Shown in pieces: positions 18,583 through 19,047 of a DNA stretch of 64,000 nt. A model generated the notes under the pieces. The model did not search any database, was not told where the DNA came from, and saw nothing but the letters and a program-made list of their open reading frames with translations. Positions within the stretch are counted from its first letter, which is position 1; each line of letters starts with the position of its first letter. The stretch is from Schmidtea polychroa (taxonomy: Eukaryota), in assembly GCA_044892525.1 (NCBI GenBank), contig CM097885.1, positions 8,248,001 to 8,312,000 of the forward strand, read 5' to 3'. Both the position numbers and the translations under genes were made by a program.

Positions 18583-19047
18583 ATGCTTTCAAATATAAAT
18601 TACAGGGCAAAAGCTGATGTATCAAAAATGGTATTTCCAATGGGGAAACCACAACAACTTATCAATAGAAGTGAAAAATATCCAATAATATATTTCAAAA
18701 CTGGTAAATGTAAAATTATGGGGTGTAAGGAAATAATCAAAGCTAGTGAATATAATGTTTATGATTTAGAAATACAATCGATAACCGTAACTTCCGATAT
18801 AGGTTTTTCTTGTAATTTAAATAATTTGGCTAAATTAATACCATGCTTTTACGAACCAGAATTATTTCCAGCTTTGAGATATATAAAATATAACCCTATG
18901 TGTGTAAATATATTCGCTAGCGGTAAGATAGTAATTCTTGGAATAAAAAATATTGATTACAAATGTATAGTTGATAATATCATATCTGAAATTAAATCAA
19001 TAATTGAAGGAAAAGAATTTTTAGATTTTTTATTATCACCTAATTAA
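18583..19047 (+). CDS. Mav1 TATA-binding-protein-like protein (154 aa)
   Basis: Second TBP repeat is clear: EIQSIT...DIGF..NL..LA...YEPELFPAL...VNIFASGKIVILG. First repeat is shortened: LSNIN...IIYFKTGKCKIMG. Confidence 0.88.
   Translation: MLSNINYRAKADVSKMVFPMGKPQQLINRSEKYPIIYFKTGKCKIMGCKEIIKASEYNVYDLEIQSITVTSDIGFSCNLNNLAKLIPCFYEPELFPALRYIKYNPMCVNIFASGKIVILGIKNIDYKCIVDNIISEIKSIIEGKEFLDFLLSPN

What the first reader, a model, noticed from the sequence alone, without database searches (positions are those of the whole stretch)
18583..19047. Mavericks encode their own minimal TATA-binding protein
Seen: Mav1 has an intact 154-aa TBP-like ORF, and the divergent Mav3 keeps a homolog at the same position (45675-46151), so it is a lineage gene rather than a one-off capture. 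Repeat 2 keeps the YEPE(L/I)F stirrup and xxFxSGK. In cellular TBP these carry the TFIIB-contacting acidic residues and two DNA-intercalating Phe. Repeat 1 keeps NI and FxxGK but seems to lack most of helix 1, its stirrup and the basic helix 2, which in TBP is part of the surface bound by TFIIA, TAF1 and Brf1. The IQN DNA contact is IQS in both copies. TBP is known from large nucleocytoplasmic DNA viruses but is not a standard Maverick core gene as far as I know. Inference: a regulation-resistant viral TBP that redirects host Pol II to viral promoters, or a TFIIB decoy.
Basis: partly seen in the sequence, partly recalled or inferred. Interest (0 to 1): 0.9.

Follow-up and report, generated by a model that had tools for sequence, protein, structure and literature searches.

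The report
Mavericks carrying a minimal TBP gene
A lineage of virus-like Maverick transposons encodes its own shortened TATA-binding protein, and its capsid and packaging genes share a TATA-like box that this protein may read, which hints at a private early-to-late transcription switch.

Summary
Window 18583-19047(+) is an intact 154-aa ORF inside a TIR-bounded Maverick. It matches Pfam TBP (E 9.5e-15) and folds with pLDDT 94.5 into a TBP saddle (Z 12.7, 141 residues aligned). Repeat 2 is complete. Repeat 1 keeps four strands but lacks H1, S2 and H2. The Mav3 copy is a homolog broken by one stop, although its subfamily is intact elsewhere.

The gene belongs to the lineage and is not a one-off capture:
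- The genome holds four subfamilies, 52-64% identical.
- dN/dS is 0.08-0.36 between subfamilies, and its median is 0.24 in 53 metagenomic pairs.
- The gene sits beside the packaging ATPase in Maverick contigs from metagenomes.
- The family forms its own clade, apart from host and canonical TBPs.

New here is a YATAAACA box on the sense strand about 35 nt upstream of the ATPase, capsid and other morphogenesis genes. It occurs in 21 of 24 ATPase upstreams (0.7 expected) and in 2 of 58 TBP-like upstreams. The TBP-like gene instead has a canonical TATA box plus an initiator-like motif.

My best reading is an early-expressed, Maverick-specific TBP that nucleates Pol II at late boxes. Binding is inferred, not shown. 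A "TBP" label in one 2021 figure legend is the only prior mention I found.

The parts
18583..19047 (+). TBP-like gene (TBPL) of Maverick 1, 154 aa, intact. Residues 1-58 form a truncated repeat 1 and residues 59-151 a complete repeat 2.
18479..18582 (.). 104-bp divergent intergenic region between the ATPase and TBPL genes. It holds a TATAAACAA box for the ATPase gene (18504-18512, minus strand, starting 34 nt before the ATG). It also holds TATATATAA (18547-18555) 30 nt upstream of a TCATT initiator-like motif (18575-18579) for TBPL.
17840..18478 (-). Packaging ATPase, A32/FtsK-like, 212 aa.
   Evidence: PF04665, E 2e-7
17858..17866 (-). TATAAACAA box starting 40 nt upstream of the ATG of the 164-aa gene. 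It lies inside the 3' end of the ATPase coding region.
17332..17826 (-). Conserved 164-aa gene of unknown function.
16185..17270 (-). rve-type integrase with a weak chromodomain hit. A TATAAACAA box lies upstream at 17407-17415.
14854..14862 (-). TATAAACAA box starting 42 nt upstream of the capsid gene ATG. It lies inside the 3' end of the 120-aa gene.
13597..14820 (-). Double jelly-roll major capsid protein, 407 aa.
   Evidence: Foldseek top hits are iridovirus, PBCV-1, mavirus and Sputnik capsid proteins, E down to 7e-17
8623..11646 (-). [quoted passage not shown] The 214-aa ORF at 7563-8207 is its C-terminal part.
6779..7239 (.). Left terminal inverted repeat of Maverick 1.
21493..21955 (.). 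Right terminal inverted repeat of Maverick 1.
19823..20095 (+). Conserved 90-aa gene next to TBPL. Its upstream region has an inverted CCAAT, TATAAAA and TCATT motifs, like TBPL's.
45675..46151 (-). TBPL copy of the degraded Maverick 3, with one in-frame stop at codon 20.
46167..46175 (+). TATAAACAA box upstream of the Maverick 3 ATPase gene.
49254..49262 (+). TATAAACAA box starting 42 nt upstream of the Maverick 3 capsid gene (49296-50519).

Best explanation
TBPL is a Maverick-encoded, asymmetric TBP-like DNA-binding transcription factor.

Shown:
- It has the TBP saddle fold with a complete C-terminal repeat. That repeat keeps the stirrup motif E91-P92-E93-L94-F95 and the residues F111, R99 and K115.
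- It has a cut-down N-terminal repeat with strands S1, S3, S4 and S5 only.
- It is conserved under purifying selection.
- It sits next to the packaging ATPase across a wide Maverick clade.
- Its own gene has a canonical TATA box plus a TCAYT initiator-like promoter, often with CCAAT. The ATPase, capsid and other morphogenesis genes instead carry a YATAAACA box on the sense strand about 35-45 nt before the ATG.

Inferred:
- Host TBP/TFIID transcribes TBPL early.
- TBPL then binds the YATAAACA boxes. The intact C-terminal repeat would sit on the YATA half. The altered N-terminal half would sit on the AACA half, with K/R44 and M46 where TBP has Val and Thr, and K22 where TBP has a Phe.
- TBPL recruits TFIIB and Pol II through the conserved stirrup and so switches on the late genes.
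- Without the repeat-1 stirrup and helix H2 it would escape TFIIA, NC2, Mot1 and TAF1 control.
For: Fold.

Repeat-1 homology and residue mapping. The invariant columns S66, E91, E93, F95, R99, P105, C107, N109, F111 and G114, and the near-invariant F38, R44 and M46, come.

Selection:
- Between the four subfamilies of this genome, dN/dS is 0.08-0.36.
- Among 43 metagenomic CDSs, 53 pairs have dS between 0.1 and 1.5. Their median dN/dS is 0.24 and the range 0.11-0.45. None reaches 0.5.

Copies:
- 149 of 150 scored Mav1-type matches have no stop.
- 150 of 150 scored Mav3-type matches have none. Most of them have 171-aa open frames, against 138 aa in the window's copy.

Synteny: 14 of 16 metagenome loci of at least 5 kb have Maverick core genes beside TBPL. 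The ATPase lies on the same strand in 26 of 28 loci that hold both genes.

Clade: all 58 TBPL rows fall on one side of a branch (SH-aLRT 90). Host TBP repeats sit with the canonical TBPs.

Box:
- TATAAACAA occurs 14 times in the window against 4.7 expected. Only 1 of 100 shuffles reaches 14.
- ATAAAC lies at -60 to -20 in 21 of 24 ATPase upstreams (0.7 expected), 6 of 10 capsid (0.3), 7 of 11 p355 (0.3) and 2 of 58 TBPL upstreams (1.8).
- The top unbiased 8-mer is CATAAACA, seen 15 times against 0.8 expected.
- In 41 sites the base before the box is T in 21, C in 19 and G in 1. The base after it is A in 35.
- Two further subfamilies carry 7 and 6 boxes, all on the sense strand and none on the antisense strand, at the same gene positions.

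TBPL upstreams: TATAWAWR in 23 of 58 (2.0 expected) and TCAYT in 26 of 58 (5.5 expected).

The 407-aa gene is a double jelly-roll capsid protein.

The roles of the TBP stirrup, the Phe residues, the Val and Thr positions and helix H2 are recalled textbook knowledge. No call tested them.
Against: - No call shows DNA binding, TFIIB binding or expression. The complex job was not folded, and no run on record as RNA was available.
- ATAAACA also fits the forkhead consensus RYAAAYA (recalled), so a host factor could read the box.
- Two boxes in Mav1 double as Tyr-Lys-Gln codons of the upstream gene, and one lies in conserved codons of the 120-aa gene. Part of their conservation may therefore be at the protein level.
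- Box distance is irregular for the integrase (-66, -87, -145) and the 120-aa gene (-101).
- 3 of 24 ATPase upstreams lack the box in the -60 to -20 range.
- One of TBP's four kinking Phe positions is Lys/Pro, and one of the two central Asn positions is Ser. TATA-type bending may therefore be impaired.
- The early/late labels are inferred from promoter type only.
Confidence: 0.5

Rival explanations
1. TBPL is a general TBP substitute or booster for all Maverick promoters, for example in chromatin or cell states where host TBP/TFIID is limiting. The YATAAACA box would then be read by something else, such as a host forkhead-type factor or another Maverick protein.
For: The fold and stirrup are conserved. 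The right-arm genes have canonical TATA boxes that a TBP-like protein could also use. ATAAACA matches the forkhead consensus (recalled).
Against: The box is strictly sense-oriented: 13 of 13 in two further elements. It is tightly positioned, with a mode of -35 for the ATPase gene. It is always preceded by a pyrimidine, giving YATAAA (40 of 41 sites). No GTAAACA alternatives take its place in the three ATPase upstreams that lack it. These features fit a core-promoter element better than an enhancer site.
Confidence: 0.22
2. TBPL is a decoy or dominant-negative. It would occupy host TATA boxes or sequester TFIIB/Brf1 without supporting initiation, and so dampen host transcription or host silencing responses.
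For: The stirrup is retained while the TFIIA- and regulator-binding parts of repeat 1 are missing.
Against: The DNA-facing residues of both halves are as conserved as the stirrup, which a pure TFIIB trap would not need. A cognate-looking box exists in the element itself. Thousands of integrated copies carrying a host-shutoff gene would be costly, which is an inference.
Confidence: 0.12
3. TBPL is an architectural DNA-bending protein used for protein-primed replication, packaging or integration at AT-rich sites, and not for transcription.
For: The gene is always beside the packaging ATPase. The TIRs are AT-rich and carry short tandem repeats.
Against: The invariant EPELF stirrup has no known role in bending alone (recalled). 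The only conserved short DNA element found lies in front of genes, not in the TIRs.
Confidence: 0.1
4. TBPL is a decaying captured host TBP fragment with no function.
For: Repeat 1 is truncated. The Mav3 copy in the window has a stop.
Against: dN/dS is 0.11-0.45 in 53 of 53 unsaturated pairs. About 100 clusters at 50% identity share the same short architecture. Synteny is conserved. The family forms a separate clade from the host TBPs.
Confidence: 0.02

Closest known systems
Cellular and archaeal TATA-binding protein (Pfam PF00352; e.g. PDB 2z8u, 1ytb, 1c9b)
   Same: It has the same saddle fold over its whole length (Z 12.7, 141 residues). Repeat 2 keeps the YEPELFP stirrup, both Phe residues and the F-x-S-G-K strand.
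   Different: It is only 154 aa and has no N-terminal tail. Repeat 1 lacks H1, S2 and H2. One Phe is replaced by Lys/Pro, one central Asn by Ser, and the DNA-facing Val and Thr of repeat 1 by Arg/Lys and Met. It is carried by a mobile virus-like element and forms its own clade.
Beta- and gamma-herpesvirus late transcription factor vTBP (BcRF1 / ORF24 / UL87)
   Same: It may work alike. vTBP is a virus-encoded TBP-like protein that reads a non-canonical TATA variant (TATT) in front of late structural genes and brings in host Pol II (PMC8360532 and PMC7498053, listing and abstracts only).
   Different: There is no detectable close kinship. BFVD matches to BcRF1 and U58 are weak, at E 1.8e-2 and 2.2e-3. 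The herpes proteins are far larger and act in a six-protein complex. The box here is YATAAACA, not TATT.
TBP-like proteins of nucleocytoplasmic large DNA viruses
   Same: These are virus-encoded TBP-fold proteins. The best BFVD matches are Heterosigma akashiwo virus, Terrestrivirus and Aureococcus virus TBPs, at E 7e-8 to 3e-6.
   Different: Those proteins are 190-500 aa with two repeats and share 14-22% identity. They serve a viral RNA polymerase in many cases (recalled). Mavericks encode no RNA polymerase among the genes seen here.
'TBP' gene labelled in midsize linear dsDNA viruses with adintovirus-like PolB (Starrett et al. 2021, PMC8502044, Fig. 5 legend)
   Same: It is a TBP homolog noted in a Polinton/adintovirus-related genome map.
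   Different: It is only a figure label. The text I read (section 3.4 and the passages found) does not describe its architecture, distribution, selection or a target motif. The figure itself is not held, and a search of the one supplement held found nothing. I cannot tell whether it is the same family.
Host TBP paralogs (TRF2/TBPL1-type)
   Same: They are extra TBP-family members used for promoter subsets. The host has an intronless 214-aa two-repeat paralog (L034, PF00352 E 8e-47).
   Different: The host paralogs keep two full repeats and group with canonical TBPs, not with TBPL.

Membership tests
TBP domain family (Pfam PF00352) | Profile match above the curated cut-off | tested here: met
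   54.7 bits against a cut-off of 22.9, E 9.5e-15. The Mav3 copy scores 58.7 bits.
TBP domain family (Pfam PF00352) | Saddle fold superposable on solved TBPs | tested here: met
   VIA-align gives Z 12.7, rmsd 2.4 A and 141 of 154 residues aligned, and the top 38 entries are all TBP. The Foldseek top 44 are all TBP.
Canonical TBP (TFIID/TFIIIB subunit) | Two complete repeats, each S1-H1-S2-S3-S4-S5-H2 | tested here: not met
   Repeat 2 is complete. Repeat 1 has four strands and a 4-residue helix only. hhalign aligns only residues 21-53 to the S3-S5 part of repeat 2.
Canonical TBP (TFIID/TFIIIB subunit) | Four DNA-kinking Phe residues and two central Asn residues | tested here: not met
   F38, F95 and F111 are kept, and the fourth position is K22. 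N6 is kept and the second Asn is the invariant S66. The residue roles are recalled.
Canonical TBP (TFIID/TFIIIB subunit) | C-terminal stirrup acidic residues that contact TFIIB | tested here: met
   E91 and E93 are invariant, and P92 and L94 nearly so, in 52 sequences. This covers sequence only. Binding was not tested (one search was not folded).
Canonical TBP (TFIID/TFIIIB subunit) | Binds and bends TATA DNA | not testable with these tools
   No protein-DNA tool was available. Only a candidate site was found.
Herpesvirus vTBP late factor | Sequence or fold kinship with BcRF1/ORF24/UL87 | tested here: inconclusive
   BFVD matches are weak: U58 at E 2.2e-3 and BcRF1 at E 1.8e-2.
Herpesvirus vTBP late factor | Variant TATA box restricted to late structural genes | tested here: met
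   This is an analogy only. YATAAACA lies upstream of the ATPase, capsid and p355 genes but not of TBPL. The timing of expression was not tested.
Maverick/Polinton element | Protein-primed PolB, rve integrase, A32/FtsK ATPase, double jelly-roll capsid protein and terminal inverted repeats | tested here: met
   Mav1's polymerase ORF itself gave only an Endonuclease VII hit in Pfam. It is read as PolB from its phmmer match to Mav3's PF03175-bearing ORF (E 2e-17; PF03175 hit). Integrase: PF00665. ATPase: PF04665. Capsid fold. TIRs: about 460 nt at 96-99% identity. The protease was seen by eye only, and target-site duplications were not examined.

The most novel reading that the evidence does not exclude
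This Maverick lineage runs a two-stage transcription programme of its own. Host TFIID fires a small early module (TBPL and its right-arm neighbours) from CCAAT/TATA/initiator promoters. The self-encoded one-and-a-half-repeat TBP then replaces TBP/TFIID at YATAAACA late boxes in front of every morphogenesis gene. Its remodelled N-terminal half would read the AACA half-site, and it would be blind to TFIIA, NC2, Mot1 and TAF1 control. That would make these Mavericks small nuclear DNA elements that rely on host Pol II yet carry their own core-promoter recognition factor. It would also offer a natural experiment in TBP half-site specificity.
Probability: 0.4. Interest if true: 0.85.

Novelty: new variant of a known kind. 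Interest (0 to 1): 0.75.

Why it matters
How Mavericks/Polintons express their genes is essentially unknown, and it bears on whether and when these endogenous virus-like elements make particles.

A self-encoded TBP paired with a gene-class-specific TATA variant gives a concrete, testable model of an early-to-late switch. The model is built from one small protein and one 8-bp box. It parallels what herpesviruses and large DNA viruses evolved separately.

The protein is also the shortest natural TBP-fold architecture I encountered in these searches. It could show which TBP surfaces are dispensable for promoter recognition.

The box itself is a practical marker for annotating late genes in this Maverick clade.

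Tried and rejected
- **Expression.** The look-up of sequencing runs listed no holder on record as RNA. Read laying used contigs of runs whose RNA status is only a guess. It showed cover of TBPL in run X1 and poly(A)/poly(T) loose ends in run X3 at 20262, 18531 and 17685, but these cannot be read as transcripts. This gives no evidence either way.
- **Complex of TBPL with a host TFIIB-like protein.** The job was counted but not folded, because the tool does not pair a eukaryote chain with a virus-like chain.
- **IMG/VR.** One weak TBP hit turned up on a 44.7-kb contig, with 33% identity over residues 41-124. No relative of this Maverick's ATPase was found. I therefore could not test whether Maverick-like viruses without TBPL also lack the box.
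- **Origin of TBPL.** The 86-column tree separates the family but cannot say which cellular or viral TBP lineage it came from. 88 of 156 inner branches are unresolved. No NCLDV TBP sequences were available to add.
- **Names and taxa.** Ten clusters held no NCBI or UniRef member and no informative name. The Atlas gave only PF00352 clusters.
- **Neighbour genes.** Pfam found nothing for the 90-, 86-, 115-, 120-, 164- and 355-aa genes.
- **Within-subfamily dN/dS.** Values of 0.18-1.24 rest on too few differences to interpret.
- **Earlier findings.** The look-up returned nothing.
- **Literature.**
  - No listed paper combined a TBP term with Maverick, Polinton or adintovirus terms, apart from the adintovirus paper and preprint and one unrelated review.
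  - One search listed promoter-motif work on virophages and polinton-like viruses, none of it obviously on a box in animal Mavericks.
  - The search of the adintovirus paper's supplement found nothing.
  - bioRxiv supplements and figures could not be seen.

Full report
**The object**

Window 18583-19047(+) is an intact ATG-to-stop ORF of 154 aa. It lies inside a Maverick bounded by terminal inverted repeats at 6779-7239 and 21493-21955, about 460 nt long and 96-99% complementary. The outermost G/C clamps and homopolymer runs extend to about 6741 and 22000.

The element carries these genes:
- a protein-primed PolB at 8623-11646, plus its C-terminal part at 7563-8207;
- a 407-aa gene whose AF2 model (pLDDT 84) matches iridovirus, PBCV-1, mavirus and Sputnik double jelly-roll capsid proteins, with Foldseek E down to 7e-17;
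- 120-aa and 355-aa genes;
- an rve integrase;
- a 164-aa gene;
- an A32/FtsK-type packaging ATPase.

The TBP-like gene (TBPL) is transcribed divergently from the ATPase across 104 bp.

**Is it TBP?**

- Pfam PF00352 matches at E 9.5e-15 and 54.7 bits, against a cut-off of 22.9.
- phmmer against PDB sequences gives 35 TBPs among 37 hits. The best is M. jannaschii TBP at 9e-17. The C-terminal repeat of each target scores higher than its N-terminal repeat.
- With a 52-sequence alignment, AF2 gives pLDDT 94.5.
- The Foldseek top 44 PDB hits are all TBP.
- VIA-align aligns 141 of 154 residues, model 1-141 to TBP 6-177, at Z 12.7 and rmsd 2.4 A. All 38 top entries are TBP and the next fold scores Z 6.1.
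- BFVD's best matches are TBPs of large DNA viruses, at E 7e-8 to 3e-6.

Residues 59-151 form a full repeat, S1'-H1'-S2'-S3'-S4'-S5'-H2'. Residues 1-58 have strands at 2-10, 25-28, 35-38 and 42-48 and one 4-residue helix. hhalign aligns residues 21-53 to residues 94-126 (probability 84%, E 8e-6). This pairs F38 with F111 and K22 with F95.

Repeat 1 keeps S1 and S3-S5 and has lost H1, S2 (its stirrup) and H2.

**Lineage gene or one-off capture?**

*Copies in this genome.* The window's own genome is 781 Mb with four chromosome-scale contigs. Its canonical TBP exon is most like human TBP among PDB entries, so the host is probably an animal.

| Query | Scored matches | Without stops | First-look candidates (not a copy number) |
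|---|---|---|---|
| Mav1-type TBPL | 150, full length, 95-100% identical | 149 | 4134 |
| ATPase | 150 | 150 | 5039 |
| Mav3-type TBPL | 150, 96-100% identical | 150 | 4048 |

The Mav3 copy in the window has one in-frame stop at codon 20. Nearly all other Mav3-type copies have 171-aa open frames.

*Subfamilies and selection.* There are four subfamilies, of 154, 156 and 170 aa plus the Mav3 type, 52-64% identical in protein. Between them dN/dS is 0.08-0.36 with saturated dS. Within them the few differences give 0.18-1.24. Among 43 full-length metagenomic CDSs, all 53 pairs with dS between 0.1 and 1.5 have dN/dS of 0.11-0.45, with a median of 0.24.

*Family size.* Scored against all 1.84 billion representative proteins, 1159 hits have E of 1e-3 or better and 103 have 1e-10 or better. 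The list is led by about 90 short proteins matched in a single stretch, ahead of the canonical two-repeat TBPs. The 58 word-index hits are mostly 140-170 aa.

*Synteny.* Of 80 metagenome loci, 37 have a Maverick core gene beside TBPL, as do 14 of the 16 loci of at least 5 kb. The usual order is TBPL, ATPase, 164-aa gene, integrase, 355-aa gene, 120-aa gene, capsid, with TBPL on the ATPase strand in 26 of 28 loci. In this genome all four subfamilies have TBPL inverted.

*Tree.* A tree of the repeat-2 region used 159 rows and 86 columns, and it is poorly resolved overall. All 58 TBPL rows fall on one side of a branch (SH-aLRT 90). The only other rows on that side are the two parts of P0114, itself a short family member. 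The four subfamilies of this genome form one clade (SH-aLRT 92). The host's own TBP repeats sit with the canonical ones. The gene is thus old, selected and specific to a Maverick clade. The tree does not reveal its origin.

**A candidate target**

The ATPase-TBPL intergenic regions of the four subfamilies are otherwise dissimilar, but all share TTGTTTATA(T/A). This reads TATAAACAA on the ATPase sense strand.

*In the window.* TATAAACAA occurs 14 times against 4.7 expected, and 1 of 100 shuffles reaches 14. At least 13 of the 14 lie in Maverick DNA on the sense strand of the nearby gene. In Mav1 the box starts at:
- -34 for the ATPase gene;
- -40 for the 164-aa gene;
- -42 for the capsid gene;
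- -87 or -145 for the integrase gene;
- -101 for the 120-aa gene.

The same genes carry it in Mav3.

*In metagenomic relatives.* The table counts deduplicated upstream regions with ATAAAC at -60 to -20.

| Gene | With ATAAAC | Expected |
|---|---|---|
| ATPase | 21 of 24 (positions cluster at -31 to -52, mode -35) | 0.7 |
| capsid | 6 of 10 | 0.3 |
| 355-aa gene | 7 of 11 | 0.3 |
| integrase | 4 of 16 | 0.5 |
| 90-aa gene | 2 of 8 | 0.2 |
| 120-aa gene | 1 of 6 | 0.2 |
| TBPL | 2 of 58 | 1.8 |

An unbiased 8-mer count puts CATAAACA first, at 15 against 0.8 expected, and TATAAACA at 23 against 2.5. In 41 sites the preceding base is T in 21, C in 19 and G in 1. The following base is A in 35. The box is therefore YATAAACA.

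*In two further subfamilies of this genome.* The box occurs 7 and 6 times, every time on the sense strand and never on the other. It sits at the same places: ATPase -33 and -35, the 164-aa gene -36 and -33, the integrase -66, the 120-aa gene -101, and the capsid gene -42.

*Context.* The box sits in intergenic DNA in some relatives and inside the 3' coding end of the upstream gene in others. In the window no co-oriented gene lies upstream of the ATPase. This argues against a poly(A) signal for a preceding gene.

**A second promoter class**

TBPL upstream regions instead carry:
- a canonical TATAWAWR box in 23 of 58, against 2.0 expected;
- a TCAYT initiator-like motif within 30 nt of the ATG in 26 of 58, against 5.5 expected;
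- CCAAT/ATTGG in 13 of 58, against 8.1 expected, which is marginal.

In Mav1, TATATATAA (18547-18555) lies 30 nt upstream of the A in TCATT (18575-18579). The other right-arm genes show the same CCAAT, TATA and TCAYT pattern when read by eye.

**Mechanism proposed**

Shown: the fold, the selection, the synteny and the two promoter classes.

Inferred: TBPL is made early from a host-type promoter. It then binds YATAAACA with its intact repeat 2 on the YATA half and its remodelled repeat 1 on the AACA half. In TBP the N-terminal repeat reads the 3' half of the box (recalled).

The family-invariant or near-invariant residues fit this picture. E91, P92, E93, L94 and F95, with R99, F111 and K115, keep the TFIIB-contacting stirrup and the DNA face of repeat 2. 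Repeat 1 has K/R44 and M46 where TBP has DNA-facing Val and Thr, and K22 where TBP has a Phe (residue roles recalled).

Loss of the repeat-1 stirrup and H2 would remove the surfaces used by TFIIA, NC2, Mot1, TAF1 and much of Brf1 (recalled).

The closest working analogy is the herpesvirus late factor vTBP, which reads TATT boxes and recruits Pol II. I saw PMC8360532, PMC7498053 and PMC4893493 only as listing and abstracts.

**Against**

- Nothing here shows binding or expression.
- ATAAACA fits the forkhead consensus (recalled).
- Two Mav1 boxes double as Tyr-Lys-Gln codons, and one lies in conserved codons of the 120-aa gene.
- Box distances for the integrase and the 120-aa gene are irregular.
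- I could not check whether Mavericks without TBPL lack the box, because IMG/VR holds no relative of this clade.

**Novelty**

Full-text searches joined TBP terms with Maverick, Polinton and adintovirus terms. They found only the adintovirus paper and its preprint, plus one unrelated review. The Fig. 5 legend in both versions, and the Fig. 6 legend in the preprint, list "TBP". No description appears in the section and passages I read, and the one supplement held has no mention. Searches for promoter motifs returned work on virophages and polinton-like viruses, none of it obviously on a box in animal Mavericks.

None of ten family clusters has an NCBI or UniRef member.

I rate this a new variant of a known kind, namely viral TBP-like factors. 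Its architecture is new and its promoter pairing is previously unreported.

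Noticed in passing
L146:5572-6477 (-) = G000:C3 near 39.09 Mb; further copies at C3:38.2-38.4 Mb and C1:23.85-24.19 Mb: An intronless 301-aa TFIIB-like ORF (zinc ribbon PF08271 E 1.5e-10, cyclin repeat PF00382 E 1.2e-10) is present in at least 13 copies. 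Some lie in tandem units about 7.9 kb apart. They are separate from the intron-containing canonical TFIIB (L143) and a Brf1-like gene (L138). No Maverick genes were seen beside the one copy I inspected.
   Followed up: partly
window 7563-8207 and 8623-11646 (-): The Mav1 polymerase is split into two ORFs separated by about 415 bp, whereas metagenomic relatives have one long ORF covering both parts. The larger part has a weak Endonuclease VII hit (PF02945, E 8e-5) at residues 641-684.
   Followed up: no
window 36127-38634: A Maverick fragment holds only the polymerase C-terminal part and the 90-aa and 86-aa right-arm genes, and lacks TBPL and the morphogenesis module. A TATAAACAA box at 38235-38243 precedes its 86-aa gene, as in Mav1 (20331-20339).
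   Followed up: partly
window 59203-63736 (+): A Ty3/gypsy-type LTR retrotransposon (zinc-knuckle gag, RT, RNase H, integrase) lies directly after the degraded Mav3 polymerase.
   Followed up: no
window 6741-6890 and 21850-22000: Each Mav1 end has three tandem copies of a roughly 27-nt unit. Outside them are long A/T homopolymer runs and a G/C-rich clamp that are inverted copies of each other.
   Followed up: no
window 19158-19567 (+) and about 20790-21277 (-): Two right-arm genes appear to contain short introns, for example GT...AG at 19215-19261. Each has CCAAT and TATA motifs upstream. I read this by eye only.
   Followed up: no
TBPL residues 43, 48 and 107 (window 18709-18711, 18724-18726, 18901-18903): Three cysteines are invariant or nearly so across the family (C43, C48, C107). 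Canonical TBP has no such conserved set (recalled). Whether they cluster in the model could not be checked, because coordinates are not exposed.
   Followed up: no
window 53651-54793 (+): Mav3 carries a 380-aa ORF with an N-terminal C2H2/zf-met zinc finger (E 1.4e-7). I found no counterpart of it in Mav1.
   Followed up: no
G000:C2:182637078-182637596 (L034), C1:195751380-195751880, C2:132285308-132285757: The host has several intronless two-repeat TBP paralogs besides the intron-containing canonical TBP (L031). The 214-aa one scores PF00352 E 8e-47.
   Followed up: partly
window 13185-13337 (-) and surroundings, 11.7-13.6 kb: A conserved 50-aa ORF with a G-G-E-H-W motif sits in a region without a long ORF. 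It looks like part of an adenain-type protease gene that is split or spliced. A TATAAACAA box lies at 12956-12964.
   Followed up: no
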